From positions 6,257,459-6,321,458 of the forward strand of contig NC_064039.1 of assembly GCF_932526225.1 (NCBI RefSeq): DNA of 64,000 bases, read 5' to 3'. A model generated the notes under the pieces. The model saw only the letters and a program-made list of their open reading frames with translations, was not told the origin of the DNA and made no database searches. The translations under genes and the position numbers were made by a program. Positions 44,760 to 62,388 of this stretch are shown in pieces. This DNA is from Nematostella vectensis. Taxonomy: Eukaryota. Position 1 is the stretch's first letter. Each line of letters starts with the position of its first letter.

Positions 44760-45748
44760 TGAGACAGAAAATCGCCCCTGCTCATGGTTGCTCACTTCCG
44801 GTTTGCCAAGGAAACCCAGATGAACAGGGAACAAATTGAATGGGCGCATGCATTTTTTTTACGCTCGATATATTTATTTTTCAAGAATAGTGTTTCGTTT
44901 TAGTTTTTTTTACTGGATTCGTTAAGAGATTTCTTTATCCCAATCCAAGTCTTAATGGTATACATACCACCAGTACTCTTCCTGTTTGCTCGCCGATACA
45001 ACGTAACCATCTTCGCTTCTTGACTTGGCCTCGCTCCACCTTTGAAGATTGGGCTTGACATCGTTTGCGTCCTCTTTGCTCATGTTGCTGCTGAATTTAA
45101 AAATCATGAAAACACGAACTTTTACAACTAACTATTGGGGAATCTGGAGCGAGTTTAAAAGGTCGACTTTGCCTGATGTGAAAAACAAAACCTACAAGAC
45201 AGAGAAAAATGTGGGTGTTCGAGTGTACTGTAGCCTACCCCGTAGGCATCTCAAAGAGCATTCAACTGTTCAAAGAGCAATAGAGAAAAATTGCCCAACA
45301 CCGCCTGGTTGAACTCCCTGTGGAGTGCTCATGATTTCTCACTTCCGGTTTGCCAAGGAAACCCAAATCAAAGGGGAATAAATTGAATGGACGCATGCAT
45401 GGTTTTACGCTCGATATATTCATTTTTCAAGAATAGTGTTTCGTTCTAGATTTTTCTTACTGGATTCTTTTAGAGATTTCTTTATCCGTATCCAAGTTTA
45501 CACTGAAGAGTAGTGTGTTACCTTTCGGCCTTAGTCGGCTGAACATCGCTCAACTTTTCCAGATCAGGCTTGACATCCTTTGTGTCTTCTTTGCTCATGT
45601 TCCTGCTGACTCTAAAAATTATGAAAGCGTGAACTTTCACAATAAGCGGTATGGGGTAATCTGGAGAAGGTTGGAAGGTCGAATTTGTTTGATGTGAAAA
45701 AAAAAACCCTTCAAGACTGAGGAAAATGTGGGCTAAAGCCTTTCCCTC
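44760..45748 (+). repeat. Host 547-bp tandem repeat (unit 1 complete; unit 2 interrupted by the Maverick/Polinton element and continuing at 62383)
   Basis: The marker CTCACTTCCGGTTTGCCAAGGAAACCC occurs at 44791 and 45338. The units share AATTGAATGG.CGCATGCAT, TTTTCAAGAATAGTGTTTCGTT and a minus-strand MSKED..DVKP.L mini-ORF. Confidence 0.75.
45743..45748. repeat. Target-site duplication, left copy (TCCCTC)
   Basis: Identical hexamer directly abutting both element ends. A 6-bp TSD is the Maverick/Polinton hallmark. Confidence 0.75.
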
Positions 45749-46255
45749 AGTAGTAGGGTTTTGGCGCAGCTGGCGCAACTTTTTGATCTCCCCAAATTTC
45801 ATTCCAAAAGTGGCGCAAAAGTCTCCGCACACCTCCGCCAAGCCTCGCGACCTGCGCATGCGCGAGTTTGCCAGAGATCTCTCGCACGACCAAGCCCACC
45901 TGTCAATCACTTTGTCACGTGACGGCCACGCCCACCTGTCAATCACTTTGTCACGTGACGGCCACGCCCACCTGTCAATCACTTTGTCACGTGATAGCCA
46001 CGCCCACCTGTCAATCATTTTGTAAAAAACCTGTCAATCACTTTGTCACGTGATGACCACGCCCACCTGTCAATCATTTTGTCAAAAACCTGTCAATCAC
46101 TTTGTCAAAAACCTGTCAATCACTTTGTCAAGAACCTGTCAATCACTTTGTCAAAAACCTGTCAATCACTTTGTCAAGAGCCTGTCAATCATTTTGTCAC
46201 GTGATAGCCAAGCCCACCTGTCAATCACTTTGTCACGTGCTGCACCTAGGGGGAG
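45749..46255 (+). repeat. Left terminal inverted repeat of the Maverick/Polinton element
   Basis: The outer ~150 bp are identical to the reverse complement of 62233..62382. They are followed by 12 copies of a subrepeat with core CCTGTCAATCA(C/T)TTTGTCA, in 36-bp (..GTCACGTGACGGCCACGCCCA..) and 23-bp (..GTCAAAAA..) variants. GCGCATGCGC lies at 45854..45863. Confidence 0.9.
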
Positions 46256-46270
46256 CCTGGGGGCTATTCT

Positions 46271-46281
46271 GGTCTAAAGAC
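46271..46281 (+). promoter_or_regulatory. Degenerate early-type box GGTCTAAAGAC upstream of ORF 46301
   Basis: It lies 20 nt before the ATG and carries one mismatch to GGTTTAAAGAC. Confidence 0.3.
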
Positions 46282-46300
46282 GTATGAGACCCTAGATAAA

Positions 46301-46561
46301 ATGACATTAAAGACGGAGGTGAAGATTAAAAACGGTGCGGCTACCGCCGGCGGTTGTTCGGTGCCGGAGGTGAACGTGAGTAACACTGCGGATGCGGGGC
46401 CTGAACACTGCTGTTGTAACGCTGATTACTATGAAGACTCAGAATACGGAAGCTTCGACCCCGTTGGGTTTGTGGCCGGAGCGGCGACAATTGTCCTTGG
46501 TGTTCTAGCAATGTTAGTCTCCATGCCACGGTATGGCGAAAAAAGATGGGTGAGATACTAG
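46301..46561 (+). CDS. Element ORF: small tail-anchored membrane protein (86 aa), function unknown
   Basis: ATG-initiated ORF just inside the left TIR. It is preceded by the degenerate box GGTCTAAAGAC (46271..46281). It has a C-terminal hydrophobic helix, VGFVAGAATIVLGVLAMLV. Confidence 0.35.
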   Translation: MTLKTEVKIKNGAATAGGCSVPEVNVSNTADAGPEHCCCNADYYEDSEYGSFDPVGFVAGAATIVLGVLAMLVSMPRYGEKRWVRY

Positions 46562-46652
46562 TCCACGGATGTGGTGCGGAGGCTTTAGACCGCACCGCCC
46601 CCACGCGGACCCCTTCGGAAGTCTTAGCAACCACACACATCACACCCAGAGG

Positions 46653-46674
46653 GAGCTCGAGGGGCTAGCCTCTC
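46653..46674 (+). other. Palindromic motif copy GAGCTCGAGGGGCTAGCCTCTC (upstream of the TFIIB-like gene)
   Basis: Non-coding copy, ~30 nt upstream of the early box. Confidence 0.6.
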
Positions 46675-46701
46675 AGCTTCACATCTAAAAAAGCTTTTGA
46701 A

Positions 46702-46716
46702 AAGTGGTTTAAAGAC
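46702..46716 (+). promoter_or_regulatory. Early-type TATA-like box AAGTGGTTTAAAGAC (TFIIB-like gene)
   Basis: TTTAAAG starts 26 nt before the ATG at 46734. It is part of a 46-nt block identical to the PolB upstream region. Confidence 0.6.
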
Positions 46717-46733
46717 ATGAACAGTTTAATAAA

Positions 46734-47660
46734 ATGGAGGAACGAACAGTTGAACGTACGGCTGAAGATCGGTCACCACCACCATATAATATCCTCGGCG
46801 GACCGGTGCCTGAGATTAACGCCCCCACCCTCATGCCGGAATTTGCACTGTTTGACCGAGCCCTCACCGAATACGAGACTAGTAGAGCCTCCTTGGGAGA
46901 CGAGGATAGTAGTAACACCCTTTGCAATCATGGCGACCTAGTCACAGAGGACGGGGTCACTAGTTGCTTAGAGTGCGGGGAACAGATGCAGCGCGTGATC
47001 GCGCACGAAAGGGAATGGGGTTTTTACGGACATTCCGACGGCGAACGGTCTTCGGATCCAAGTCGGGTCCAGGTACGTAGGTCTGAGGATAGAAATATTG
47101 ACAAGGATGTGGAGAACATGGGTTTTAGCGGGGTAATTGTATCCAAAGCTAACGAGATATACACTCAGGTGACGAAAGGCCAGATTTTTCGCGGCGACCC
47201 ACGGAAGGCGGTCGTCTTTGCGTGTATCTACTACGCCTACAAGATGTCCGGTAAGTGTCAGACACCGAAAACCTTGATGGAAACTTTTGGATTGAGCAGG
47301 AAGAGTTGCCTTAAGGGTCTAAAAATCTTTAGTATTAACGTGCCTAAAGATTACTTACTACACGGAACGTCTCCCACCGTCGTGGACCACATTCACGATG
47401 TGATGGATAGATTCTCGGCGTCCCCCGCACAGAAGGGAGAGGTGGTCCAGCTCTACTACAGATCTAAGAACCGCTCGTCTGAGTTGAATCGCGCTCGCCC
47501 ACAATCCTTTGCGGTCGCTTTAACCTATTACTGGGTACGGCTAAAGGGGGTCGATATTACACTTAAAAAATTCTCCGAAAGAACGGGCGTCTCCGAGTTA
47601 ACCATCAGTAGGAAAGCGAGAGAAGTGGCCACAGTCCTGGGTACGCCTGGTGTGGTATGA
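46734..47660 (+). CDS. Element-encoded TFIIB-like transcription initiation factor (zinc ribbon + B-reader-like segment + two cyclin folds)
   Basis: 308 aa. CNHGDLVTEDGVTSCLECG..REWGFY..SDPSRVQ parallels TFIIB CPNHPDAILVED..ICPECG..SEWRTF..KDPSRVG. RGDPRKAVVFACIYYAYKMSG..TLMETFGLSRKSCLKGLKIF parallels the first cyclin repeat ([42 protein letters not shown]). RARPQSFAVALTYYWVRLKGVDITLKKFSERTGVSELTISRKAREV parallels the second ([38 protein letters not shown]). The comparison is from memory of the TFIIB sequence, not a computed alignment. Confidence 0.8.
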   Translation: MEERTVERTAEDRSPPPYNILGGPVPEINAPTLMPEFALFDRALTEYETSRASLGDEDSSNTLCNHGDLVTEDGVTSCLECGEQMQRVIAHEREWGFYGHSDGERSSDPSRVQVRRSEDRNIDKDVENMGFSGVIVSKANEIYTQVTKGQIFRGDPRKAVVFACIYYAYKMSGKCQTPKTLMETFGLSRKSCLKGLKIFSINVPKDYLLHGTSPTVVDHIHDVMDRFSASPAQKGEVVQLYYRSKNRSSELNRARPQSFAVALTYYWVRLKGVDITLKKFSERTGVSELTISRKAREVATVLGTPGVV

Positions 47661-47764: not shown

Positions 47765-47781
47765 GTGGATGTAATAACAAA

Positions 47782-48606
47782 ATGGATATGCAAAGTGCTG
47801 GAAGTCTTACAAATCTCACCGTGGAGGATCAAGCCGCCACCTTAGCGAGGTGGGGAGCCGCAGACTTTGACGCCGTTATGGAGCGCGCGGCGTGGGAGGG
47901 GTGCGTCGAGACCGTGAGGTTGTGTAAGAGTTGGGGTGCGACGGATTTCGAAAAGCCGATGGTCAGGGCCGCAATGAACGGCCACACCGAGATCGTTAAG
48001 ATGTGTTGTGAGTCGGGCGCCTGTGACTTCGTGTATCCAGCGTCCATGGCCGCGAAAGGCGGGCACGTAGAGGTTTTGAAGGTGATGGGCGAGTATTGTG
48101 CCGACGGAGGAGAGGCCATGACCGAGGCCATGGGTGCTGCGGCGGCGGAAGGTCAGGTGGGGGTTGTTGAGTTGTTGATAGATCTAGGTGTCGATGTCGA
48201 TGTCGGTTGGGCCACCGCTGAGGCGGCGTACAATGGGCACGTTGAGGTTCTGAAGCTGCTGAGAGAAAACTTCTGGGAGTTTGACCCGGACTATGCTATA
48301 ACACCAGCCATCGAATCTCGCAACCTCGAGATTGTGAGGTTGTGCTTGGAGTGGGGCGCGACCGATCTCATTGTACATATGAACTACGCACGGTTTTGGC
48401 ATCTGCATAAGATTTTCGCGGTGCTACGTGCGGCGTGGGGGTGGAGTCTTGTGCATGAGGAGCTCCCGGAGAAGCTACACAAGGTGAGATTCCGTAGAAA
48501 GCTGGAGGACGAACTAATGCCAGTAGCTTGGCATCCGGACAGGTTTTGGGATTGGTGCATGGATGAGCAAGAGAAGGAAATGTTGGGAGAATGCTTCGCC
48601 AGGTAG
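47782..48606 (+). CDS. Element ORF: ankyrin-repeat protein with a Trp/Cys-rich C-terminal tail
   Basis: 274 aa with about 6 repeats bearing the ankyrin signature: AAWEGCVETVRLC, AAMNGHTEIVKMC, AAKGGHVEVLKVM, AAAEGQVGVVELL, AAYNGHVEVLKLL, ESRNLEIVRLCLEWGA. The tail is VAWHPDRFWDWCMDEQEKE. The early-type box lies at 47750..47764. Confidence 0.75.
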   Translation: MDMQSAGSLTNLTVEDQAATLARWGAADFDAVMERAAWEGCVETVRLCKSWGATDFEKPMVRAAMNGHTEIVKMCCESGACDFVYPASMAAKGGHVEVLKVMGEYCADGGEAMTEAMGAAAAEGQVGVVELLIDLGVDVDVGWATAEAAYNGHVEVLKLLRENFWEFDPDYAITPAIESRNLEIVRLCLEWGATDLIVHMNYARFWHLHKIFAVLRAAWGWSLVHEELPEKLHKVRFRRKLEDELMPVAWHPDRFWDWCMDEQEKEMLGECFAR

Positions 48607-48663: not shown

Positions 48664-49011
48664 ATGACCGGTTTGATAGAAATGGAGAACCAAACGGTGA
48701 AAGACTCGAAAGTATCCCCCGTAAAGCGAACAACGGATTATAAGTGTCTTCATGGCAGAGTGAAATATTATTGCAAAGATTGTCACGGATCGCAAATCTG
48801 CCCTCACAACCGGAGAAAAACGCGGTGCAGAGAATGTAACGGCGGTAGCATTTGTGAGCACAGACGAGCAAGATATGTCTGTAAAGACTGCAAGGGGAAA
48901 GGGATGTGTGAACACAGCAAACAGAGACCCTTTTGTAAGTTATGCGGAGGGTCTCAAATATGCGAACACGATAGACAAAAGCACCATTGCAGAACGTGTA
49001 ACGGAAATTAA
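48664..49011 (+). CDS. Element ORF: tandem Cys/His zinc-ribbon repeat protein (putative nucleic-acid binding)
   Basis: 115 aa with four tandem units of C-x-H-x(4-6)-C-x2-C-x-G-x3: CLHGRVKYYCKDCHGSQI / CPHNRRKTRCRECNGGSI / CEHRRARYVCKDCKGKGM / CEHSKQRPFCKLCGGSQI / CEHDRQKHHCRTCNG. It shares the N-terminal MTGLIEMEN and the promoter with the PolB gene. The functional start may be the second ATG at 48682. Confidence 0.6.
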   Translation: MTGLIEMENQTVKDSKVSPVKRTTDYKCLHGRVKYYCKDCHGSQICPHNRRKTRCRECNGGSICEHRRARYVCKDCKGKGMCEHSKQRPFCKLCGGSQICEHDRQKHHCRTCNGN

Positions 49012-49208: not shown

Positions 49209-50735
49209 TTACCGGAATAGATACCAAGCTAAACCAGCCGTAAAGGCTGTGATCGTGACAAGGTTATTTTCGTGCTGCGTGTTCGTGGGTTTAATCACGT
49301 CCGGCTTTGGGTTAGTTTTCGCCTCCGGTTCCGGTTTGTGAGCCGTGACTGACTCGGTATGAGGTAACACAATCTTTGAATGACCCATATTATGTTTAGG
49401 GATCGTTTTTATCTCGTTATTTATCGGATTCAGCCCCAGTTTCATATCAGTGGTGGCTTTTTGTAACTTGTTATTATAGCCAGCGATCGAAGTGTTGTTA
49501 TTTATCACAAGATACGATGGACTTAACCAACAGCCGAGGGCGAAAGCTAGGTCTAGTTTTTGTCTCGCCTGTTGTAAAGCAAACTGATACCGTTGTATAC
49601 TTTTCGATATACTGTTTTCCACCACCGCGCTTTCGAAGAGTTTCGTGAAGACCTGTTTCGTTTCCTGAGCTGAACCGCTATCGCCGACGATTGACGACCG
49701 GGTCTGAACTTGCGCGCCTAGAATACAGTAGACAAAGGCTTCGATGCTCTGGTTTATCCTAGACAACCCAGCTTTGGTTAACCCCATTGATTTTTCCGGA
49801 AAGAACCACTCATACTGAAACCCAGTTCTAAGGTCTTTCAGGTACTCGATCTCAAAGTGATTCATGTGTTCGTGGTCGCTTTTGGCAGCGTCCCATTCGT
49901 CGTGTAATTGATCAATGGTGCCATAAGGCTTATACTTGTCGTTAGAAGATGACAAGCCGTGATAATCATAATTATAAACGTTCCCTAACCCGTGATTTAT
50001 CGGTCTGAGGAACCGGAAATCGTCACCAGTTCGGAATTCTGTTCTTAGTTTTTGGTAAGCCGCTTCGCTGTAAAAGTTTTTATTCCAACTAAAGAGCCTA
50101 TCTTTTGGAAGAGGGCATTGTAGCTCGTTTAATATTCGTCTGATAGTGAAAATGATGTGAAATCTGTAGAATGACCCCACTTGAGAGTCGTCAATCATGT
50201 CACGCGTCACACCACATCCAGCAGTCGCGCAAAACATAGCAAAATTTAAGGCTTGACTCCAATAACTGAGGTTTGGGGCGTCGAGCCACCTACTAGCCTC
50301 CTTTGCTGTTCTGAATACTAGCAAGCTGTCGGTGAATATGTCCCTAAAAACAAAGTGTGTCTTCACCTTTGGTGTTATAAAAACATTAAAAGAGACGTAA
50401 TTATTTCTCGTAGGGTTTTCGTCCCACGGCAATATCTTGTACTCTGCACGCGCGTCTAGTCTGTATTGTTTTGGGAACCCAAACAGTTGCTGGATCGTTT
50501 CCTTGTATGCTTGTGTGTCGTCGGCGACTAGAAAATCCTGGATATTCTCGGGTTTCCAGCTATTACCAGGGAAGTGATATAACGTTTTGACTAGATTCCC
50601 ATTCTTGTCGAATGGATCGTATTCGTCCCCATTGAAAACGAATTGCACATTGCCGTGCCCGTCGGCAGAGAACCTGAAGCGTGAGTAGTAGGGGTACCTT
50701 TTCACAAATTCTGTAAACTTCATCTTATATGACAT
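49209..50735 (-). CDS. Element ORF: 508-aa protein of unknown function with a C-terminal transmembrane anchor
   Basis: Long uninterrupted ATG ORF in the minus-strand gene block. The box GATTTAAAAAC lies upstream at 50743..50755. The C-terminus NLVTITAFTAGLAWYLFR is hydrophobic. I recognise no family motif. Confidence 0.6.
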   Translation of the reverse strand: MSYKMKFTEFVKRYPYYSRFRFSADGHGNVQFVFNGDEYDPFDKNGNLVKTLYHFPGNSWKPENIQDFLVADDTQAYKETIQQLFGFPKQYRLDARAEYKILPWDENPTRNNYVSFNVFITPKVKTHFVFRDIFTDSLLVFRTAKEASRWLDAPNLSYWSQALNFAMFCATAGCGVTRDMIDDSQVGSFYRFHIIFTIRRILNELQCPLPKDRLFSWNKNFYSEAAYQKLRTEFRTGDDFRFLRPINHGLGNVYNYDYHGLSSSNDKYKPYGTIDQLHDEWDAAKSDHEHMNHFEIEYLKDLRTGFQYEWFFPEKSMGLTKAGLSRINQSIEAFVYCILGAQVQTRSSIVGDSGSAQETKQVFTKLFESAVVENSISKSIQRYQFALQQARQKLDLAFALGCWLSPSYLVINNNTSIAGYNNKLQKATTDMKLGLNPINNEIKTIPKHNMGHSKIVLPHTESVTAHKPEPEAKTNPKPDVIKPTNTQHENNLVTITAFTAGLAWYLFR

Positions 50736-50813: not shown

Positions 50814-51419
50814 TCACCGAGCGGGTCGACTCGCCAGGTCTTTCAAAATCTCTTCTCTTACTGTTTCCCTCAGCTTGGTAATGTTTACGTTTTTTTCGTC
50901 CTCTCTTACCGACTTTTGACGGATCTGGAGCTTTAGAGCCTCAAACTTGTCCACCTCGTTCAAGATTAAAGAGAACTCTTCGTCTGATATTTTGTTGTCT
51001 TTTAAAGCTTTAGAGACCAGGTCGCGTATGCTATTTACTTTTGCCTTTGCCATCGCCGCTGTTTGGTCGTGCTTGGAGACTTTTTGCGACAGCCGTTTAG
51101 AAACCGCCGCACAGCCTACAGACGTAAGACCGAAAACACCGGCCAAAGCACCCAACGGAACTCCGACGACGATACCAAAACCTGACAGAGAAGTCCCCAA
51201 ACCACTAGACCCAAGAATGACGGATAAGAGTCCTAAGACCACACTTAACTTTGAAAACACGCTCTGCCCTCGTTTATACTTTTTCCTCACGTTCTCGTAA
51301 TGTTTAACTTCTTGCTCCAAACTTCCCAAAACATCGTGGGTCTTTTGGAGTCTGAAGTTATCACCCGAGGGGCTGACCCCTCGGGGTACGTTCGGGTAGA
51401 TTGAGTTGTACTCTTCCAT
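50814..51419 (-). CDS. Element ORF: two-pass glycine-zipper membrane protein with a C-terminal coiled coil (201 aa)
   Basis: Central segment LSVVLGLLSVILGSSGLGTSLSGFGIVVGVPLGALAGVFGLTSVGCAAV, followed by a charged helical tail. The box CACTTAAAGAA lies upstream at 51442..51455. Confidence 0.6.
   Translation of the reverse strand: MEEYNSIYPNVPRGVSPSGDNFRLQKTHDVLGSLEQEVKHYENVRKKYKRGQSVFSKLSVVLGLLSVILGSSGLGTSLSGFGIVVGVPLGALAGVFGLTSVGCAAVSKRLSQKVSKHDQTAAMAKAKVNSIRDLVSKALKDNKISDEEFSLILNEVDKFEALKLQIRQKSVREDEKNVNITKLRETVREEILKDLASRPAR
51366..51384 (-). other. Related palindrome CCGAGGGGTCAGCCCCTCG inside ORF 50814..51419
   Basis: It shares the GAGGGG-N-CCCCTC arms with the other copies and encodes PRGVSPS. 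Confidence 0.4.
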
Positions 51420-51441: not shown

Positions 51442-51455
51442 ATTCTTTAAGTGAT
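51442..51455 (-). promoter_or_regulatory. Variant box ATCACTTAAAGAAT (ORF 50814..51419)
   Basis: It lies ~25 nt before the ATG at 51419 and overlaps the stop codon of the penton candidate. Confidence 0.45.
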
Positions 51456-53839: not shown

Positions 53840-53853
53840 AATCTTTAAATCAC
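53840..53853 (-). promoter_or_regulatory. Late-type box GTGATTTAAAGATT (ORF 53590..53814)
   Basis: It lies 35 nt before the ATG at 53814. The 14-mer is identical to the one at 54335..54348. Confidence 0.55.
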
Positions 53854-55691: not shown

Positions 55692-55705
55692 GTCCTTTTT
55701 AATAC
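55692..55705 (-). promoter_or_regulatory. Variant box GTATTAAAAAGGAC (ATPase gene), overlapping the MCP stop codon
   Basis: It lies ~25 nt before the ATG at 55670. The MCP TAA stop codon is embedded in the box. Confidence 0.45.
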
Positions 55706-56937
55706 ATGATTGCTCTCAAATTCGAGTTCATAACCTCCATCAACGCGTCGGCTACTACAAACATGTAGCAGGTGATGTTTCCCGTTCCTCCAACTTTTCG
55801 TTTCATCTCGAGTTTTACTCCGTCTCGCGTGTTGTTCAAGACCAGACCTCCTCCGTGAATGCTGTTATCTGGGTGTGCCCTCAAGTCGACCCACAGAGCA
55901 AACTTGTTATTAGCGTAAAAATCCTTTTGCTTGACACCCTCTCTACCGAAACGTTTCTTTACCGACTCCCAGAGGTCCGGCGGTGTCATCCCCTTGGAGT
56001 AGAGACGGTTTGGCATGCCATCCACATTAATGTTGATCGATGTGATGCTTGGATTGACAAACTTTTCGGAATCCCTTGCTCCTCCGGTGTAGCTCTCTGT
56101 GAACAGGCACAATATCCCTGTCATTGACCTCCTCGGCAGATTAATGTGCTCGTTTATGACACCATCATTAGGTTTGGAGATGGTGAACGTTTTGTGGAGA
56201 ATGACGTTCTCGTAAAAGAATCCTCTACCAACCTGATAAGCCGACAACGCCTCACGAGCTAAGTATTCACTTGAGATGCAAGCATATTCCAACTCGAGGT
56301 TTGTGATTGTGTACGTTGGAGTCTTGACCGTGTCAGCATAAACAACGACGTCGGAAACTGGGGCTAGAGTAATTTCAAAGATTAGCGGATGAGGTAACGC
56401 CTTTGGATAAAAGACCCCATGCTCGCCGAGAATAGGATGGTCGAGTGGAATGCAGTACTTGGTGTTGTGAACTGCTGCAAGAGCTACTTCCTTAGCATCT
56501 GATGTCGCTTTGTCACCTGCATTTGTCCTGAGCTTCCTCATGTTCTCAGAGGAGATACCTTGTTTTATTCTATCCTCACGATCTTCAGCTTGTAAGTATA
56601 AGTCGTGATAGGTTTGGAAGAGATCGTATCTTTGAGTATCCTGTAGTGTTTCTCCACCGAAAAGAATCTTGAGCCTTGACACTAGGTTCCGGCCAACGTT
56701 GTTGACGAGAGTATTATTCGCGTGTCCTGTGACGTTTAAGTCAAATAGTAAGGATACACTACCTGGAACAATCACTACATTTTCAGCAAGTTTTGGAATA
56801 TTTATATAGAGGGTTTCTCCAGGACTTGCCGATGAGGGATTGAATGTAATCCGATTCAGCGACGATTCCGCTTTCAGGCCGAAGGGTTCCCGTGGGATCC
56901 TGTTTGGGTTAATTTTTTCTGATATCGCTTGTGCCAT
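55699..56937 (-). CDS. Candidate major capsid protein (double jelly-roll expected), 412 aa
   Basis: Its position is immediately upstream of the packaging ATPase. It carries a late-type box, and its size and beta-rich composition fit. No other ORF in the element is a better MCP candidate. The fold was not verified. Confidence 0.55.
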   Translation of the reverse strand: MAQAISEKINPNRIPREPFGLKAESSLNRITFNPSSASPGETLYINIPKLAENVVIVPGSVSLLFDLNVTGHANNTLVNNVGRNLVSRLKILFGGETLQDTQRYDLFQTYHDLYLQAEDREDRIKQGISSENMRKLRTNAGDKATSDAKEVALAAVHNTKYCIPLDHPILGEHGVFYPKALPHPLIFEITLAPVSDVVVYADTVKTPTYTITNLELEYACISSEYLAREALSAYQVGRGFFYENVILHKTFTISKPNDGVINEHINLPRRSMTGILCLFTESYTGGARDSEKFVNPSITSININVDGMPNRLYSKGMTPPDLWESVKKRFGREGVKQKDFYANNKFALWVDLRAHPDNSIHGGGLVLNNTRDGVKLEMKRKVGGTGNITCYMFVVADALMEVMNSNLRAIMY

Positions 56938-56961: not shown

Positions 56962-56975
56962 AATCTTTAAATGAG
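56962..56975 (-). promoter_or_regulatory. Late-type box CTCATTTAAAGATT (MCP gene), overlapping the integrase start codon
   Basis: It lies 34 nt before the MCP ATG at 56937. The palindromic TTTAAA core sits in the 33-bp divergent MCP/integrase spacer. Confidence 0.55.
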
Positions 56976-57963
56976 TAACGAAAGCAGGTTATCAAAAATA
57001 TACTATTCCACCGATGGATACTGGAAAGGGTATTCAGCTATTTATAAGTTAGCTAGTGTCGCTAAAGTCAGTGAAGCCGAGGCTAAGAGGTGGCTTGAAA
57101 AACAGGCGTTGTGGCAGATCTATCTCCCAGCTCCAAAGTATGTCCCCAGACCGCATTGGACTGTGAATAAACCTAATCAGATTCACCAAGCCGATCTGTT
57201 GTTTATGCCCCACGATAACGTAGGCAGAAAAACCTACCGTTACGCGTTGGTCGTGATTGATATTGCCTCGAGATATAAAGATGCAGAAGCACTGACTACC
57301 AAGGATTCGAGTGGAATTGCTAAAGGGTTTGAAAAGATATACTCCAGAAAACTTAAATGGCCTCATACGGTGATTGTCGATCCGGGGACAGAATTTAGGG
57401 GAGAGGTAACGAAGATTATGAAAAAGAAGGGGGTTACCATCCAGCGAAGCGAAGCTGGGAACCATCGCGCACAGGCTTTTGTCGAACGCGCCAATAGAAC
57501 ACTGGCGGAGAGGTTGTTTTCTTATCAGTATGCTCAAGAAATGATTAGCGATGATCGGTCCAGAGTTTGGGTGAAACGATTGCCAGATGTTTTGAAGACT
57601 CTGAATAGTCAACCCATAAGAATTACTGGCAAAGAGCCTGTAAAATCTATTGGTTTGAAAGAGGTTGATATTGACCCTCCAACGTATAAGCGGCCTGTTG
57701 GACTTGACGAAGTTAGACTACCACCAGGGGTTAGAGTTAGATATCTATTAGCTCCTGGAGAAGAGGAAGGAGGTGAACGCAGACGAGCCACAGACCCCAT
57801 TTGGAGTTTGAAAGTGTTTGATCTATCACGCAGTGTTGTTTCGGTTGGGCAGCCTGTGTTGTACTACCTCTCCGAAGGCGCTCCAAGGAGGTCGTTCGTT
57901 AGGGAAGAACTTCAAGTCGTCCCTGAAGATACTGAGCCACCACCTAATAGCGTTCTGAAATGA
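56971..57963 (+). CDS. Retroviral-type (rve) DDE integrase
   Basis: The catalytic-core pattern is HQADLLFMP..(D), VIVDPGTEFRG (D), AQAFVERANRTLAERL (E), with typical spacing. The C-terminal beta-rich tail (VLYYLSEGAPRRSFVREELQVV) looks chromo/SH3-like. Confidence 0.9.
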   Translation: MSNESRLSKIYYSTDGYWKGYSAIYKLASVAKVSEAEAKRWLEKQALWQIYLPAPKYVPRPHWTVNKPNQIHQADLLFMPHDNVGRKTYRYALVVIDIASRYKDAEALTTKDSSGIAKGFEKIYSRKLKWPHTVIVDPGTEFRGEVTKIMKKKGVTIQRSEAGNHRAQAFVERANRTLAERLFSYQYAQEMISDDRSRVWVKRLPDVLKTLNSQPIRITGKEPVKSIGLKEVDIDPPTYKRPVGLDEVRLPPGVRVRYLLAPGEEEGGERRRATDPIWSLKVFDLSRSVVSVGQPVLYYLSEGAPRRSFVREELQVVPEDTEPPPNSVLK

Positions 57964-60900
57964 CCGTGAGCGAAGGTGTGAATACCATCATCACAGATGA
58001 CCCGTTTATCATCCTCATGAGATAGAGCGACCTTGTTCACCGTTTCAGTGTAAACATCATGCTTATGACTTCTGATGACATTCATAAGTCTCATCTGAGG
58101 TTTCTTACCAAATAAGCAATCCTTGTAGTCATCGAAACCGATGCTCTTCTTGACGACTGCTCTCTTGACGCCCTTGCATTTCTTTTCTTCTTTACCTTCA
58201 TCCATCTTGTACGAGTAAAGTTTGGCCCTCAGTCCTACAAATTCTGTGATTTGCTGGCCCCCAGCCTCATCTTTAAACATTCCGATGACTTTCTTGTTCA
58301 CACCCACCTCAATACCAGATGGGTGACCCTTCGGAAAGTTGCTGGTGTCGAACATGGACCTCACATCCCCGCTGATGTCCTCGTAAAAGTCTTTCGTCTC
58401 GATCTCATACATCAGGCTGTCAGTATCAGTGAATAAGAGCTTTGCATCCTCACCGTACTTAGGCTTGACGAAGTTGTAGTGGAAATCGTACATGAGCGTC
58501 TTACTCAGGTCCAGAATGGACATACCCAAGTAGACAGGCTTGTTGAAGATCAGCTTTGTCTTCTTCATGTGGATGGCGGCTAGATTCTCGCAAAAGATGG
58601 TGCGATGTTGATAGTTCGGCTTTGATATGAGCTTCTTGGCCTGCTTCTCGTCCGTCACCAACCGAATGTCCACCCTGTTCCTAATGTTCTCCATAGTCTT
58701 ACCAAAGACGGAGTTGTTCATTAACTTGAAAAAATCTTTCTCAAAATCGTTTGTCGCCTTGGCTCTCAGATCGGTGTTCAAGTCAATGTAGGGCTCCAGC
58801 CAAGCAGACTCCTCAAAAGTGACACCCCTGTGAATCTTGGTGACTTTTAGCCCAAAACTCACATAAAGTCTCAGAGTCTCATGGTGGATAACGTACTTTG
58901 TCTTGTCGTTAAGGTTGGGGACCAACTTGTCCACATTGCCTAGCCCGATAGATTCCGGGGCTAGTGGGTAATCGTTGTGTAAGTCATGTAGGTGGTGAGG
59001 GTACTCCAAGTCAACCTCCAGAATGCATGGGCGGTCTCTCCAACCTGACAGCTCTTGGTCACCCATCCACCTGAAACCGTGAGTCGGTAAAGGGTTGCTC
59101 ATCGCCCAGCCATACAAATTGTTAGCATCAAGGTAGGTGATATATTTTGTGGGTAGGTCAGGGTCATACTCCTTCATGTAAGGGTTATTTGCCTCCCCAT
59201 GTCTGTTGCTTATCATGGAGACACCCCCACGGATGCCCTTCTCAATCATGAGCAACATGTCATAGTCCGTTAGAAGCTCTAGCCTCACCTTGGTGGTCTT
59301 CAACGCTGCATCCCAAGCCAACCCTGGCGCTGTGTAGTACCAAGCGGGGTCCAGACCGTAATTCTTGAGACAAACGTCCCTAAAGTTCTCGAAAACGTCA
59401 GCTAAAAGCAACACATCCGACTCTAGGTACAGATTGTGGTAATCCCTCATGGTCCCCATCCCAAAGGCCTCCCACACTCTCCGCGCGTGCAGGTGATCCT
59501 CCTCCGATATGTCGGTGTCGTTGAGTTTGGAGTGGAACGCCTCTCTCTGTGGGAGCTGTGTTGCGTCGAGCTTGCTAAAGCCGTCGAACCAGTCGTAAGG
59601 GAAAACACCCTTCCTCAACAACAGCTGAAGCTCCTCCCCCTCATAGTACTCCGCCAGGTTTTTGAAGCACTCCCTTGACATATTACCCACTAGACTGTCG
59701 AGACTGGCCGACATAAACCTGAAACTGTCGATAAATCTGATATCACGTTTAACATCAATCTTGTTGCCCTCCTTGTTCGTGAAACTGTCGACTACAATCT
59801 GTTTTGTGAAAGAAATATACTTTTCCTCGTTATTAGGTATACAGTTTATTTTACCTTCCGATGTACCAAGGTTCTTGATAAATAGATGGCTGTCGTACCC
59901 AGACAGATTGTGAAAGATAACAGGAAAGAACTTTGGAATTTTGTGATCTAAGTTGCATGCGTTGTGAGCAGCACCTCTGTACTTCCCTGTAAGGTGGCAA
60001 TGGTCCAAAACCTTGTCTTCCCCTAATTCACCCTCACAGATGTGGCAGTGAGTGGCGTCGTTATAGGCGATTTTGTCCTTCGGAGTCATTTTCACCTTCT
60101 TAGGGAACCTGAACTTATCATAAATTTTCTTAATGTCTGACTCCAAAGACTCTACGAAAAGCTGTGGGATATCTTCGTCTGGAGATTCAGCTGTGTATCG
60201 TACAAGCTCGGATGGGGATATATCTCCGTCGAAACACTTGATGAGATAGCAGAAACCAGACGGTTTGTGTTTCTGGTATTGCTTAGTGAAGCTTTTACTC
60301 TCATCTGGGGAGCATGTGTCTATATTCTCTGTGAAGCTCTCAAAGTCGGCGTAGACAACAAAGGGGACACGCATTTTTCTGTTGTAGTTTTTGAATTTAA
60401 TGTGGGGTAGATTTCCATCCTTATCTATCTTAGGCATCTCTATTCCAACCGCTTCATGATTGCCGCAGCATTCAGAATGTTTTTCTAATGATTGTTTGCA
60501 CCGAAACGAGTTCAGACATCTACAGCATAAAAAACGAGTATGATGAAACTCATCAATTTGAGTAGATACTAATCTCATCATATTCTTTATCCAGCAGTAA
60601 TGATTCGTCTCATCATCCGAGATGAGAAGTAAGTTGATTGCATTATCTGGATCCTTCTCACTGATTCTCAATGGATATATTTTGGTTTCGTATCCAAACA
60701 CATTAACCGTATACTGGTTCTGTTTCTCGAACTTGTCAATCTGTTTTAGTGAGACGGGGAACTCTATCCCTGACCAGTCGAATTTCTCAGAGCTCTCTAT
60801 CATTTGTTTACTGAACCTTTGAGGATCTTTCTCCCTAGGATACACAGCAGAGGTTACTGCCCACTTGAAACATTCGTGATCATTCTCGTTCTTAACATTG

Positions 60901-61838
60901 ATGATCGCCTTCTTAGACGCTAGTTTCAGCGGCAGCGGAATATAGGAAGACCCAGAAAGCGGTTCAAAGGGATCTATGTTGATGTCAAAGTATTCCACTT
61001 GGTCAAACTGCCATCCGGAGCCTTGCTTCTGGAACAGCTCAACTAATCCGAGTAAATAATTTGTCATCGTATCGAACAAATCAGAGAGATCAGTCGACTC
61101 TGTCACAATCTCGGGCTTCTCTGTATGAAAATATCCCAGTTCTTCTTCGATCTGAGCTGTAGCCGGATCCTCTTTTATAAACCCGCAAGTAAAGATAAAC
61201 TTCACTTTGATAGGCTTTTTTTGTCGACTGATGAGCTCTAAGACTTTCGGTTTGATTCTGGCGATGAATGTCTTGGGGTCGTAACCTCTCTGCCCGGCTA
61301 TTCCGTGGGTTTTAAGATACCCCTTCAACGCCGTCTGTTGTTCCTTGGGTGTGAAGCGATCTTCCACCTCCTCGTGTAGACGCTTAATCCTCTCCTTCAG
61401 ACGTTCGACCCGTTTATCTGCAGCCTCTTTGACGGTCTTTTTGACGGGCTCGGGGACATAAGATAGTATCCAATCCGCAAACTTGTCTAACTCGCTCTTG
61501 ATCAAGTTGGCCGCCCTGTTTGCAAAATGCTTGAGTGATTGGACGCGGGAACTCCGTGGGGGTTGGGAGGGTTTTAGAATAGGGACATTAATCTCAGGTA
61601 TCGGGCCGTCGAGAATACTCTCCGACGTGTTGGACGGGGTAATGCGGGGTGGTCGTGGCAGCCCTTTGACAAGTTTGGGTAAAGGAACCCGTCGGGGTGG
61701 TGGTGGTGGTGACGTGCTGGTCAGCGCCCCGACGAGCTCGTCTCTCCGCATCCAGTAATATCTTGGGATACCCCGCTCCTTGGCGAGGGCTTTCAGATCT
61801 TTCACCTTCAGGTTCTCCATTTCTATCAAACCAGTCAT
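57912..61838 (-). CDS. Protein-primed family B DNA polymerase with a long N-terminal (terminal-protein-like) region and a SAP-like motif
   Basis: 1308 aa. Pol motifs: YLDANNLYGWAM (A), KLMNNSVFGKTME (B), LLFTDTDSLMY (C). Exonuclease region: VVYADFESF. N-terminus: LKVKDLKALAKERGIPRYYWMRRDELVGAL (SAP-like). The early-type box lies at 61839..61853. The functional start may be the second ATG at 61820. Confidence 0.95.
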   Translation of the reverse strand: MTGLIEMENLKVKDLKALAKERGIPRYYWMRRDELVGALTSTSPPPPPRRVPLPKLVKGLPRPPRITPSNTSESILDGPIPEINVPILKPSQPPRSSRVQSLKHFANRAANLIKSELDKFADWILSYVPEPVKKTVKEAADKRVERLKERIKRLHEEVEDRFTPKEQQTALKGYLKTHGIAGQRGYDPKTFIARIKPKVLELISRQKKPIKVKFIFTCGFIKEDPATAQIEEELGYFHTEKPEIVTESTDLSDLFDTMTNYLLGLVELFQKQGSGWQFDQVEYFDINIDPFEPLSGSSYIPLPLKLASKKAIINVKNENDHECFKWAVTSAVYPREKDPQRFSKQMIESSEKFDWSGIEFPVSLKQIDKFEKQNQYTVNVFGYETKIYPLRISEKDPDNAINLLLISDDETNHYCWIKNMMRLVSTQIDEFHHTRFLCCRCLNSFRCKQSLEKHSECCGNHEAVGIEMPKIDKDGNLPHIKFKNYNRKMRVPFVVYADFESFTENIDTCSPDESKSFTKQYQKHKPSGFCYLIKCFDGDISPSELVRYTAESPDEDIPQLFVESLESDIKKIYDKFRFPKKVKMTPKDKIAYNDATHCHICEGELGEDKVLDHCHLTGKYRGAAHNACNLDHKIPKFFPVIFHNLSGYDSHLFIKNLGTSEGKINCIPNNEEKYISFTKQIVVDSFTNKEGNKIDVKRDIRFIDSFRFMSASLDSLVGNMSRECFKNLAEYYEGEELQLLLRKGVFPYDWFDGFSKLDATQLPQREAFHSKLNDTDISEEDHLHARRVWEAFGMGTMRDYHNLYLESDVLLLADVFENFRDVCLKNYGLDPAWYYTAPGLAWDAALKTTKVRLELLTDYDMLLMIEKGIRGGVSMISNRHGEANNPYMKEYDPDLPTKYITYLDANNLYGWAMSNPLPTHGFRWMGDQELSGWRDRPCILEVDLEYPHHLHDLHNDYPLAPESIGLGNVDKLVPNLNDKTKYVIHHETLRLYVSFGLKVTKIHRGVTFEESAWLEPYIDLNTDLRAKATNDFEKDFFKLMNNSVFGKTMENIRNRVDIRLVTDEKQAKKLISKPNYQHRTIFCENLAAIHMKKTKLIFNKPVYLGMSILDLSKTLMYDFHYNFVKPKYGEDAKLLFTDTDSLMYEIETKDFYEDISGDVRSMFDTSNFPKGHPSGIEVGVNKKVIGMFKDEAGGQQITEFVGLRAKLYSYKMDEGKEEKKCKGVKRAVVKKSIGFDDYKDCLFGKKPQMRLMNVIRSHKHDVYTETVNKVALSHEDDKRVICDDGIHTFAHGHFRTLLGGGSVSSGTT

Positions 61839-61853
61839 GTCTTTAAACCACTT
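61839..61853 (-). promoter_or_regulatory. Early-type TATA-like box AAGTGGTTTAAAGAC (PolB gene)
   Basis: It abuts the ATG at 61838 and lies 27 nt before the second ATG at 61820. Confidence 0.6.
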
Positions 61854-61881
61854 TTCAAAAGCTTTTTTAGATGTGAAGCTT

Positions 61882-61902
61882 AGAGGCTAGCCTCCCGAGC
61901 TC
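61882..61902 (-). other. Palindromic motif copy (upstream of PolB, at the inner TIR edge)
   Basis: The reverse complement reads GAGCTCGGGAGGCTAGCCTCT and contains the perfect 12-bp palindrome GAGGCTAGCCTC. Confidence 0.6.
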
Positions 61903-62382
61903 CCCCTAGGTGCGACACGTGACAAAGTGATTGACAGGTGGGCTTGACTATCACGTGACAAAGTGATTGACAGGTTCTTGACAAAATGATTGACAGGTTC
62001 TTGACAAAATGATTGACAGGTTTTTTACAAAGTGATTGACAGGTGGGCGTGGCTATCACATGACAAAGTGATTGACAGGTTTTTGACAAAGTGATTGACA
62101 GGTGGGCTTGGCCGTCACGTGACAAAGTGATTGACAGGTTTTTTACAAAGTGATTGACAGGTGGGCTTGGCTATCACGTGACAAAGTGATTGACAGGTGG
62201 GCTTGGCTATCACGTGACAAAATGATTGACAGGTGGGCTTGGTCGTGCGAGAGATCTCTGGCAAACTCGCGCATGCGCAGGTCGCGAGGCTTGGCGGAGG
62301 TGTGCGGAGACTTTTGCGCCACTTTTGGAATGAAATTTGGGGAGATCAAAAAGTTGCGCCAGCTGCGCCAAAACCCTACTAC
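61899..62382 (-). repeat. Right terminal inverted repeat of the Maverick/Polinton element
   Basis: Reverse complement of the left TIR, with 11 subrepeat copies in a slightly different order. GCGCATGCGC lies at 62269..62278. The base at 62383 is ambiguous between TIR and TSD. Confidence 0.9.
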
Positions 62383-62388
62383 TCCCTC
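62383..62388. repeat. Target-site duplication, right copy (TCCCTC)
   Basis: See the left copy. If 62383 is counted as TIR instead, the TSD is the 5-bp CCCTC. Confidence 0.75.

What the first reader, a model, noticed from the sequence alone, without database searches (positions are those of the whole stretch)
45743..62388. Apparently intact 16.6-kb Maverick/Polinton-type virus-like element with perfect outer TIRs, 6-bp TSD and an in-window empty-site proxy
Seen in sequence:
- The element starts AGTAGTAGGGTTTTGGCGCAGCTGGCGCAAC at 45749 and ends with the exact reverse complement at 62382.
- The outer ~150 bp of both ends are identical. They then run into 12 versus 11 copies of a 23/36-bp subrepeat, giving TIRs of ~0.5 kb.
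- TCCCTC abuts both ends.
- The upstream paralogous unit of the host 547-bp repeat (45232..45259, AGCCTACCCCGTAGGCATCTCAAAGAGC) aligns colinearly at 20/28 with left flank + one TSD copy + right flank (AGCCTTTCCCTC|AAGCATCTTAGAGAGC).
- All 16 ORFs are open.

Established knowledge: pPolB + rve integrase + FtsK/HerA ATPase + capsid genes, long TIRs and a 6-bp TSD define Mavericks/Polintons.

Inference: this is a young insertion that may still be replication- or virion-competent. Its gene set departs from the canonical one (see the other findings).
Basis: partly seen in the sequence, partly recalled or inferred. Interest (0 to 1): 0.85.

Follow-up and report, generated by a model that had tools for sequence, protein, structure and literature searches.

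The report
Full-length Polinton-3_NV copy in Nematostella
This is a complete, recently inserted copy of Polinton-3_NV, a virus-like giant transposon of the sea anemone Nematostella vectensis that is already catalogued, so the element is ordinary, although its giant-virus-type TFIIB gene, per-gene promoter motif and host-factor site arrays in the terminal repeats appear undescribed.

Summary
A 16,635-bp element (45749-62383) has terminal inverted repeats that are identical for 161 bp, followed by 12 versus 11 subrepeats. It is flanked by a 5-7-bp direct repeat ((T)CCCTC(A)). It interrupts a host repeat whose upstream paralog runs uninterrupted through the homologous point.

The interpretation (Maverick/Polinton) is supported:
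- protein-primed PolB, shown by motifs and by Pfam hits in relatives;
- a D,D35E rve integrase;
- an A32 packaging ATPase;
- a double jelly-roll major capsid protein (AlphaFold model matching PBCV-1 Vp54, E 5e-16);
- a PX-type penton (hhalign probability 98%).

No adenain protease is present.

It is not new. The capsid protein is 412/412 identical to the published Polinton-3_NV MCP (Krupovic et al. 2014; 16,575 bp, protease-negative). ORF2 is exactly a RefSeq N. vectensis protein that has at least 26 near-identical paralogs.

Details that appear undescribed:
- The penton scored absent in 2014 is present.
- 15 of 16 genes carry a TTTAAAGA-like motif 9-35 nt upstream of the ATG, mostly 26-35.
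- The terminal repeats hold 23 perfect TGATTGACAG (Pbx-Meis/Prep) sites.
- The TFIIB-like gene is 56-68% identical to a syntenic gene of giant-virus MAGs.
- Rfam mir-9460 lies inside the integrase gene.

Whether this copy is competent is untested.

The parts
45743..45748 (.). Left copy of the target-site duplication (TCCCTC; the unambiguous core is CCCTC at 45744-45748)
   Evidence: Flanks read directly
45749..46261 (+). Left terminal inverted repeat. It starts AGTAGTAGGG, has 161 bp identical to the right end, then 12 subrepeats.
45900..46227 (-). Array of 12 perfect TGATTGACAG sites (the TALE Pbx-Meis/Prep 'DECA' motif) with 6 interspersed CACGTG E-boxes
   Evidence: All 23 window matches lie in the two TIRs against 0.22 expected. 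The motif identity comes from PMC6023610.
46301..46561 (+). ORF1, 86 aa, one predicted membrane helix, no known family
46643..46743 (+). Copy of the ~100-nt promoter/leader module that also precedes ORF16 and, in part, ORF4
   Evidence: 89% identical to 61812-61912
46734..47660 (+). ORF2, TFIIB-like protein (Zn-ribbon Cys/His plus two cyclin repeats). Identical to RefSeq XP_048581547.1.
   Evidence: Pfam TFIIB 1.5e-8. Human TFIIB core E 1.8e-5. Exact RefSeq match and 33-member cluster. 56-68% identity to giant-virus MAG genes.
47782..48606 (+). ORF3, ankyrin-repeat protein
   Evidence: Pfam Ank_2 7.9e-12
48664..49011 (+). ORF4, 115-aa Cys-rich protein with 4 CxxCxGxxxCxH repeats. Its first 9 residues match those of ORF16.
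   Evidence: Relatives at 34-53% identity in IMG/VR contigs, including giant-virus MAGs.
49209..50735 (-). ORF5, 508 aa, a conserved lineage-specific protein of unmatched fold with a C-terminal hydrophobic helix
   Evidence: 316 homologs and no Pfam domain. Model pLDDT 75.5. No significant PDB or BFVD match.
50814..51419 (-). ORF6, 201 aa, Gly-rich membrane segments
   Evidence: 64% identity in L005.
51447..52070 (-). ORF7, PX-type minor capsid (penton) protein
   Evidence: BLASTP E 1e-26 against the Polinton-N1B_NV PX protein. hhalign against 11 published PX proteins: probability 98.2%, E 5e-14.
52074..53096 (-). ORF8, 340 aa, coiled coil plus two C-terminal membrane helices
   Evidence: Weak PHROG tape-measure hit at 1.4e-4.
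53141..53557 (-). ORF9, 138 aa, small membrane protein
53590..53814 (-). ORF10, 74 aa, the most conserved small protein (86-99% identity in relatives, dN/dS 0.01-0.08)
53850..54311 (-). ORF11, 153 aa, one membrane helix
54454..54981 (-). ORF12, 175 aa counted from its ATG, conserved, function unknown
55044..55670 (-). ORF13, A32/FtsK-HerA-type genome-packaging ATPase, 208 aa counted from its ATG. Walker A is GPTNCGKT and Walker B is LLVLDD.
   Evidence: Pfam Pox_A32 3.7e-11. Motifs. ATG start.
55699..56937 (-). ORF14, double jelly-roll major capsid protein, identical to the published Polinton-3_NV MCP
   Evidence: 412/412 identity. AF2 model pLDDT 82.6, pTM 0.83. Foldseek matches PBCV-1 Vp54, SGIV MCP, mavirus MCP and vaccinia D13, E 5e-16 to 1e-10.
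56971..57963 (+). ORF15, rve-family integrase with D75, D137, E172 (D,D35E)
   Evidence: Pfam rve 9.9e-8, scoring exactly at the cut-off. Motifs. dN/dS about 0.10.
57195..57262 (+). Hairpin matching Rfam mir-9460 68/68, inside the integrase coding sequence on the sense strand
   Evidence: 102.9 bits against a gathering score of 85. MFE -17.6 kcal/mol.
57912..61838 (-). ORF16, 1308 aa. [quoted passage not shown]
   Evidence: Motifs at residues 496, 643, 804, 904, 1038, 1137 and 1204. Endonuclease VII and Rho_N hits. 46,960 representative homologs, of which 5 of 8 sampled hit PF03175.
61894..62383 (-). Right terminal inverted repeat with 11 subrepeats (TGATTGACAG at 61928-62232)
62383..62388 (.). 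Right copy of the target-site duplication (TCCCTC). Its first T is also the last base of the full TIR.
45232..45259 (+). Uninterrupted paralogous host-repeat site that serves as the empty-site proxy

Best explanation
The element is a full-length, recently integrated genomic copy of Polinton-3_NV, a known Maverick/Polinton (polintovirus) family of the sea anemone Nematostella vectensis.

Shown here:
- The bounds, TIRs and flanking duplication.
- The gene identities.
- Identity to the published family.
- Purifying selection across the lineage.

Inferred mechanism:
1. Each gene is transcribed from its own short TTTAAAGA-type (TATA-like) promoter, usually 26-35 nt upstream of the ATG. The element's own TFIIB-like protein possibly assists.
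2. The PolB, whose N-terminal ~475 aa would act as terminal protein, starts protein-primed replication at the TIR ends. The reiterated AGT-AGT-AG terminus fits a slide-back or jump-back start, as in adenovirus CATCATCAAT.
3. The D,D35E integrase joins the linear genome into host DNA with a 5-6-bp staggered cut, which makes the (T)CCCTC duplication.
4. The DJR capsid protein, the PX penton, the A32 ATPase and a block of small membrane proteins would build and fill a membrane-containing icosahedral particle. There is no adenain-type maturation protease.
5. The 23 Pbx-Meis/Prep sites and the E-boxes in the TIRs would recruit host factors as enhancers or as auxiliary origin elements. This would be analogous to the NFI/Oct-1 sites of adenovirus ITRs.
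For: - MCP 412/412 identical to the 'Polinton-3_NV' sequence in Krupovic et al. 2014, Additional file 5. Their Table S1 lists 16,575 bp, MCP+, ATPase+, protease-. The element here is 16,635 bp.
- The host is identified. ORF2 equals XP_048581547.1/XP_048584879.1 of N. vectensis. Its 90% cluster has 33 members, with at least 26 XP accessions, on several chromosome-size records. ORF5 and ORF7 have 95-98% identical N. vectensis RefSeq relatives.
- TIRs, TSD and empty-site proxy.
- DJR fold.
- Penton.
- ATPase and integrase.
- PolB.
- dN/dS against three relatives: MCP 0.05-0.14, ATPase 0.06-0.12, integrase about 0.10, PolB 0.08.
- Promoter motif upstream of 15 of 16 ORFs, against 3.9% expected at random positions.
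- Shared leader module.
- DECA motif: 23 matches against 0.22 expected.
Against: - ORF16 itself does not reach any Pfam PolB model or any PDB sequence. Its assignment rests on motifs and on relatives.
- The integrase hit sits exactly at Pfam's cut-off.
- No protease was found. That matches the family description, but it leaves capsid maturation unexplained.
- The penton gene has only 9 detectable homologs and is missing from the close relative L005, so it may not be universally required.
- The TSD length is ambiguous (5-7 bp).
- The promoter motif was defined post hoc from these same 16 upstream regions.
- Nothing here shows transcription, replication or particles.
Confidence: 0.9

Rival explanations
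1. The copy is structurally intact but functionally dead or host-silenced. On this view it is a recent insertion that no longer replicates or forms particles, and the apparent integrity only reflects its youth.
For: - No adenain protease.
- An Rfam miRNA hairpin lies inside the integrase gene, which suggests that host small-RNA machinery processes its transcripts.
- No related capsid gene was found in IMG/VR viral contigs, so there is no sign of free virus genomes.
Against: - All 16 ORFs have the lengths seen in relatives.
- The termini are perfect.
- The promoter motif is retained at 15 of 16 genes.
- The lineage evolves under strong purifying selection.
- Near-identical copies exist in other datasets.
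Confidence: 0.35
2. The element is virophage-like. It would depend on, or defend against, a giant virus that infects the same cells, using promoters and a TFIIB of giant-virus type, as mavirus does with CroV.
For: - ORF2 is 56-68% identical over its full length to a syntenic TFIIB gene in 15 giant-virus MAG contigs. These have GC of about 28-44% (mostly about 30%), an NCLDV P9-type minor capsid gene nearby, and contig lengths up to 356 kb.
- ORF4 relatives also occur in such contigs.
- In those contigs TTTAAA is the commonest A3T3 hexamer upstream of ORFs and peaks at -35 to -26. That is the same core and position as the element's motif.
Against: - No giant virus of Nematostella is known to me.
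- TTTAAA is also a generic TATA-like sequence in AT-rich DNA.
- In a midpoint-rooted tree ORF2 is sister to the giant-virus genes, not nested among them, so the direction of transfer is unresolved.
- The element carries a full replication and integration module and has dozens of germline copies, so it does not need a helper to explain its spread.
Confidence: 0.1
3. The junctions are assembly artefacts, or the TSD and empty-site match are coincidence.
For: - The direct repeat is short, with a chance of about 1e-3 for 5 bp.
- BLAST does not carry the paralog alignment across the junction.
Against: - Perfect 161-bp inverted termini abut the duplication exactly.
- The length agrees with the published 16,575 bp.
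- A permissive alignment crosses the junction, and its score exceeds all 500 shuffles.
Confidence: 0.02

Closest known systems
Polinton-3_NV (Repbase family of Nematostella vectensis; analysed in Krupovic, Bamford & Koonin 2014, PMC4028283)
   Same: - MCP identical, 412/412.
- Same host.
- Length within 60 bp.
- ATPase present and protease absent, as published.
   Different: The 2014 table scores the penton as absent. This copy encodes a clear PX-type penton.
Canonical Polintons/Mavericks (for example Polinton-1_NV, Polinton-1_DR, Polinton-1_SP)
   Same: - pPolB plus rve integrase.
- A32 ATPase.
- DJR MCP and PX penton.
- 15-20 kb in length, long TIRs, and about 6-bp TSD (PMC4028283; PMC3014272).
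   Different: - No adenain-like cysteine protease.
- The MCP is of the type the 2014 paper linked to the PgVV Polinton-like virus rather than to the main PY group.
- Extra TFIIB-like, ankyrin and Cys-rich genes.
Polinton-N1_NV / N1A / N1B (Nematostella)
   Same: The penton is homologous: 29% identity over the full length, E 1e-26. These families are also protease-negative.
   Different: They are separate families with other lengths (14.4-15.0 kb). Their other genes were not compared.
Mavirus and other integrating virophages
   Same: - rve integrase plus pPolB.
- DJR MCP; the mavirus MCP matches the model at E 2e-12.
- TIRs and host-genome integration.
- Gene-by-gene short promoters.
   Different: Mavirus has a protease and a demonstrated giant-virus helper. 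No helper is known here, and the hosts are animals.
Adenovirus replication origin
   Same: - Protein-primed PolB.
- Inverted terminal repeats with a reiterated 3-nt terminus (CATCATCAAT versus AGTAGTAGGG).
- Host transcription-factor sites next to the core origin. This point is my own knowledge and was not tested.
   Different: The capsid and genome size differ. Adenovirus has no integrase. The sites here are for TALE homeodomain factors and E-box factors.
Stony-coral polintoviruses (PMC11131425)
   Same: This is an anthozoan-wide family of integrated elements. MCP relatives at 62-95% identity occur on Mb-size contigs, and a 93%-identical MCP occurs in Oculina patagonica.
   Different: That study does not mention Nematostella, TFIIB or Oculina. 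Which of its clades corresponds to this lineage was not determined.

Membership tests
Polinton/Maverick (polintovirus) | [quoted passage not shown] | tested here: met
   ORF16 has Exo I (YADFES), Exo II (HNLSGYD), Exo III (YLESD), motif A (DANNLY), motif B (KLMNNSVFGK), motif C (TDTDS) and KxY. Of 8 relatives that are 40-54% identical, 5 hit PF03175 at E 1e-8 to 2e-31. ORF16 itself gives no Pfam or PDB polymerase hit.
Polinton/Maverick (polintovirus) | Retrovirus-like (rve) DDE integrase | tested here: met
   Pfam rve E 9.9e-8, 32.6 bits, which equals the cut-off. D75, D137 and E172 have the D,D35E spacing. Homologs are annotated rve in L004 and L005.
Polinton/Maverick (polintovirus) | Long terminal inverted repeats (about 100-1000 bp) | tested here: met
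   TIRs of about 510 bp, the outer 161 bp identical.
Polinton/Maverick (polintovirus) | 6-bp target-site duplication | tested here: met
   TCCCTC or CCCTCA is present at both ends. The exact length is ambiguous between 5 and 7 bp, because the repeat overlaps the terminal TIR base.
Polinton/Maverick (polintovirus) | Double jelly-roll major capsid protein | tested here: met
   AF2 model pLDDT 82.6. Top Foldseek matches are PBCV-1 Vp54, SGIV MCP and mavirus MCP.
Polinton/Maverick (polintovirus) | Single jelly-roll penton (PX) | tested here: met
   Sequence and profile homology to published PX proteins.
Polinton/Maverick (polintovirus) | FtsK/HerA (A32-like) packaging ATPase | tested here: met
   Pfam Pox_A32 3.7e-11, plus Walker A and B motifs.
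Polinton/Maverick (polintovirus) | Adenain-like cysteine protease (present in about 74% of Polintons, so frequent rather than strictly defining) | tested here: not met
   None of the 16 ORFs gives a peptidase hit at E <= 0.1. The only large unassigned ORF (ORF5) has no adenain-like fold. 93% of the interior is already coding. The published table also scores it absent.
Polinton-3_NV (Repbase family) | Same proteins, host and length as the family reference | tested here: met
   MCP 412/412. The host is N. vectensis. Length is 16,635 versus 16,575 bp.
Polinton-3_NV (Repbase family) | At least 80% nucleotide identity to the consensus over its length | not testable with these tools
   The Repbase consensus DNA is not in any accessible collection.
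Virophage (giant-virus-dependent) | Replication requires a co-infecting giant virus | not testable with these tools
   Only indirect links exist: a giant-virus-type TFIIB and similar upstream motifs.
Polinton-like viruses (PLV) | DJR MCP, penton and ATPase, without both pPolB and rve integrase in most members | tested here: not met
   This element has both pPolB and rve. It shares only the protease-less morphogenetic module.

The most novel reading that the evidence does not exclude
The left arm of Polinton-3_NV is a transcription module shared with giant viruses. It consists of a full-length TFIIB that is 56-68% identical to a syntenic core gene of a clade of giant-virus MAGs, a Cys-rich protein family also found in such MAGs, and a TTTAAAGA-type promoter at every gene that resembles the commonest upstream motif in those MAGs.

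If this module is functional, an animal Polinton would bring its own initiation factor to redirect transcription. It would also share, or have shared, host cells with a giant virus, possibly in a mavirus-like virophage or defence relationship in a cnidarian.
Probability: 0.25. Interest if true: 0.7.

Novelty: already known. Interest (0 to 1): 0.35.

Why it matters
As an element it adds little. Polinton-3_NV has been in Repbase and in the capsid literature since at least 2014, and intact Polinton copies in cnidarians are expected.

It is useful in three ways:
1. It is a clean reference copy with exact ends, a flanking duplication and an empty-site proxy.
2. It corrects the published 'no penton' call for this family.
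3. It is a warning about annotation. At least 26 RefSeq 'transcription initiation factor IIB-like' genes of Nematostella, and the miRNA family mir-9460, are parts of this element.

The side observations could make this lineage a tractable animal model, because Nematostella is a laboratory organism. Those observations are the giant-virus-type TFIIB, a promoter motif at every gene, and the arrays of TALE-factor sites in the terminal repeats. The model could address how polintoviruses are transcribed and whether they interact with giant viruses.

Tried and rejected
- Other Nematostella copies. I tried to fetch them by exact protein look-up of ORF2 and of a paralog. They are not on record, so termini and TSDs of other genomic copies could not be compared.
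- Terminal sequence searches. The terminal 24-mer has no match in JGI metagenomes or in IMG/VR. The 19-nt subrepeat gave 7 single, unrelated matches, which are chance.
- MCP profile in IMG/VR: no relatives.
- ORF16 polymerase. Pfam on ORF16, whole and in three pieces, found no polymerase model. PDB phmmer and profile searches gave nothing.
- Integrase against PDB: nothing.
- PHROGs gave only endonuclease VII and weak tape-measure and spanin hits, which I do not use.
- The bacterial promoter and terminator scan is at chance level and irrelevant for a eukaryotic element.
- Recent cross-order horizontal transfer. I considered it because of the 93% MCP identity with Oculina. I do not claim it, because relatives with 83-94% MCP identity already show dS of 0.6-1.0. 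The similarity therefore reflects constraint, and no Oculina DNA was available.
- Direction of TFIIB transfer. It is not resolved by a midpoint-rooted NJ tree.

Full report
**1. Observation**

Ends and repeats.
- The left end (45749 onward) and the reverse complement of the right end (up to 62383) are identical for 161 bp.
- They then run into 12 versus 11 copies of CCTGTCAATCAYTTTGT at 23/36-bp spacing.
- Similarity continues to about 510 bp, so the TIRs are 45749-46261 and 61894-62383.

Flanking duplication.
- The flanks read ...TTTCCCTC|AGTAGTAG... and ...CTACTACT|CCCTCAAG....
- With the full inverted repeat the duplication is CCCTC (5 bp).
- Because the base outside it on each side also matches, TCCCTC or CCCTCA (6 bp) and TCCCTCA (7 bp) are equally valid readings.

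Empty-site proxy.
- The element sits in one unit of a diverged host repeat.
- A permissive alignment of the upstream unit runs straight across the reconstructed junction.
- The right-flank part scores 31 against 16.8 +/- 2.9 in 500 shuffles, none of which reached 31.
- A standard BLAST alignment stops 16 bp before the junction.
- The proxy is therefore supportive, not strong.

Coding content.
- Sixteen ORFs occupy 93% of the interior.
- ORF12 and ORF13 have in-frame ATG starts at 54981 and 55670.

**2. What the genes are**

- **ORF13** is an A32-type packaging ATPase (Pfam 3.7e-11, with Walker A and B motifs).
- **ORF15** is an rve integrase. Pfam gives 9.9e-8, exactly at the cut-off. It has a D75, D137, E172 triad with D,D35E spacing.
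- **ORF16** (1308 aa) gives no Pfam or PDB polymerase hit of its own.
  - It carries every exonuclease and polymerase motif of protein-primed PolBs.
  - Its polymerase part has 46,960 representative homologs.
  - Of 8 sampled relatives at 40-54% identity, 5 hit PF03175 DNA_pol_B_2, and they carry the same endonuclease-VII-like zinc insert.
- **ORF14**, modelled with 45 homologs (pLDDT 82.6, pTM 0.83), matches double jelly-roll capsid proteins. These are PBCV-1 Vp54 (E 5e-16), SGIV MCP, mavirus MCP and vaccinia D13.
- **ORF7** is a PX-type penton. BLASTP gives E 1e-26 against the published Polinton-N1B_NV PX protein. A profile-profile comparison with 11 published PX proteins gives probability 98.2% and E 5e-14 over 181 columns.
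- **No ORF resembles an adenain protease**.
- **ORF5**, the one large unassigned ORF, has 316 homologs but no structural match in PDB or BFVD.
- **ORF6, 8, 9 and 11** have predicted membrane helices.

**3. Identity**

- ORF14 is 412/412 identical to the 'Polinton-3_NV' MCP printed in Additional file 5 of Krupovic, Bamford & Koonin 2014 (PMC4028283).
- Their Table S1 lists Polinton-3_NV of Nematostella vectensis as 16,575 bp, MCP+, penton-, ATPase+, protease-. The element here is 16,635 bp.
- ORF2 is exactly RefSeq XP_048581547.1/XP_048584879.1, 'transcription initiation factor IIB-like [Nematostella vectensis]'. Its 90%-identity cluster has 33 members. The 15 listed members alone carry at least 26 XP accessions, on several chromosome-size records.
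- ORF5 and ORF7 have 95-98% identical N. vectensis RefSeq relatives.
- Fragments 98.4% and 99.6% identical occur in a JGI metagenome and in a Logan assembly.

The window is therefore N. vectensis, and the element is one copy of a multi-copy, catalogued family. The only disagreement with the literature is that a penton gene is present.

**4. Lineage context**

- The MCP has 755 homologs. Many lie on Mb-size ENA contigs, and one cluster holds 4,980 sequences.
- One homolog, 93% identical, is annotated in the coral Oculina patagonica.
- Against three relatives (L003-L005), dN/dS is 0.05-0.14 for the MCP, 0.06-0.12 for the ATPase, about 0.10 for the integrase and 0.08 for PolB. dS is 0.5-1.7.
- The lineage therefore evolves as a functional entity, and high capsid identity is not evidence of recent transfer.
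- Modules are exchanged. L004 keeps an 83%-identical MCP, but its polymerase is only 27% identical. L005 (94% MCP) lacks ORF7 altogether. ORF7 has only 9 detectable homologs.
- Integrated polintoviruses of stony corals have been described (PMC11131425).

**5. Regulation and ends (new details, partly inference)**

Promoter motif.
- A YTWAARRR motif, typically G[GA]TTTAAAGA, lies on the sense strand 9-35 nt upstream of the ATG of 15 of 16 ORFs. In most it lies 26-35 nt upstream.
- ORF1 has the variant TCTAAAGAC.
- A random position has such a motif 3.9% of the time (binomial about 1e-20). The motif was defined from these same sequences, so that figure is inflated.

Shared leader module.
- A module of about 100 nt that contains the motif precedes ORF16 and ORF2, and in part ORF4.
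- ORF4 and ORF16 even share their first nine codons.

TIR sites.
- The TIR subrepeats hold 23 perfect TGATTGACAG decamers against 0.22 expected. All of them lie in the TIRs.
- This decamer is the 'DECA' site of Pbx-Prep/Meis TALE dimers (PMC6023610).
- Eleven CACGTG E-boxes accompany them.

Terminus.
- The terminus AGT-AGT-AG-GG is a reiterated triplet.
- From established knowledge of protein-primed replication (phi29, adenovirus), this fits a slide-back or jump-back initiation. This is inference.

**6. Cargo and giant viruses (noticed while checking 'non-canonical gene set')**

- ORF2 matches the two cyclin repeats of human TFIIB only weakly (E 1.8e-5).
- It is colinear over its full length, at 56-68% identity, with a gene in 15 IMG/VR contigs. 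Most of these are named giant-virus MAGs.
- Those contigs reach 356 kb. GC is about 28-44%, mostly about 30%. ORFs are dense and intronless.
- Synteny around the gene is conserved. A PBCV-1 P9-type minor capsid gene lies upstream. A NIF/CTD-phosphatase gene lies next to it in L014. A WW-UCH gene lies downstream.
- No other element gene matches them except ORF4, whose Cys-rich repeat family also occurs in such contigs.
- In a midpoint-rooted tree ORF2 is sister to the giant-virus genes, so the direction of transfer is unresolved.
- In the giant-virus loci TTTAAA is the commonest A3T3 hexamer upstream of ORFs (64 of 163, against 19-42 for the other permutations). It peaks at -35 to -26. This resembles the element's motif, but it could be a generic TATA-like signal.
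- The full-text search returned no paper that links TFIIB to a Polinton.

**7. Verdict**

- The element is an already known family, so interest in the finding as stated is low to moderate.
- Competence of this copy is plausible but untested.
- The side observations on TFIIB, promoters, TALE sites and mir-9460 are the parts worth following up.

Noticed in passing
window 57195-57262 (+), inside ORF15: Rfam mir-9460 matches 68/68 bases (102.9 bits) within the integrase coding sequence, on the sense strand, and folds as a hairpin (-17.6 kcal/mol). The curated miRNA family therefore appears to be a piece of Polinton-3_NV. From memory, the miR-94xx series are Nematostella miRNAs. No paper in the library mentions miR-9460.
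   Followed up: partly
window 46734-47660 (+); loci L013-L029: The TFIIB-like ORF2 is 56-68% identical over its full length to a syntenic gene in 15 giant-virus MAG contigs of IMG/VR. RefSeq annotates at least 26 near-identical copies as host 'TFIIB-like' genes. The Polinton version has an extra 33-aa N-terminal extension.
   Followed up: yes
window 48664-49011 (+); loci L030-L041: ORF4 (4 x CxxCxGxxxCxH) has 34-53% identical relatives in 12 IMG/VR contigs, including giant-virus MAGs. Because the protein is repetitive, the matches may partly reflect the repeat.
   Followed up: partly
window 45900-46227 and 61928-62232: There are 23 perfect TGATTGACAG (Pbx-Meis/Prep DECA) sites, all in the two TIRs and all pointing outward, with 11 CACGTG E-boxes between them. 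The motif is absent from relatives L003-L005, but their TIRs may not be covered.
   Followed up: partly
window, 9-35 nt upstream of each ORF start (for example 56963-56970, 61847-61870, 46708-46715): A G[GA]TTTAAAGA-like motif precedes 15 of 16 ORFs, mostly 26-35 nt before the ATG. The 33-bp gap between the divergent MCP and integrase genes holds one palindromic copy that serves both.
   Followed up: yes
window ORF2 residues 22-35 and ORF16 residues 77-90: A short shared peptide motif, GPxPEINxPxLxP, occurs in the N-terminal extension of the TFIIB-like protein and in the N-terminal (putative terminal-protein) region of PolB. Its function is unknown.
   Followed up: no
loci L004, L005 compared with window 51447-52070 and 57912-61838: Module shuffling in the lineage. 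L005 (MCP 94% identical) has no ORF7 penton homolog. L004 (MCP 83%) has a polymerase only 27% identical. L003 has about 3.3-kb inverted repeats and polymerase fragments on both strands.
   Followed up: partly
protein P0122 (KAL9963735.1, Oculina patagonica): A stony-coral genome encodes an MCP that is 93% identical (319/343) to this sea-anemone element's MCP, fused in the gene model to ATPase-like sequence. dS could not be computed, so conservation cannot be separated from transfer.
   Followed up: partly
window 54353-54486: A tandem repeat with 22/32/54-bp units (TGCTCAAGAGCT-like) lies in the spacer between ORF11 and ORF12, the only sizeable non-coding gap inside the morphogenetic block.
   Followed up: no
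window 8509-9006 and 12945-13397: Two ORFs with identical first ~143 residues encode a CUB-like domain (CGGNL...SPNYPDAYP), which indicates a recent host segmental duplication about 4.4 kb apart.
   Followed up: no
window 17231-18664 (+): An uninterrupted 477-aa ORF looks like a bifunctional UMP synthase (OPRT plus OMP decarboxylase) by eye. An intronless host gene of this size is unusual for an animal.
   Followed up: no
window 40000-40896, 62498-62952, 36000-38000: Host repeats: a 32-bp tandem array (28 copies), a 161-bp tandem array (2.8 copies) just right of the element, and a strongly C-skewed low-complexity stretch (GC skew -0.5) that encodes a Pro/Ser/Phe-rich repetitive ORF.
   Followed up: no
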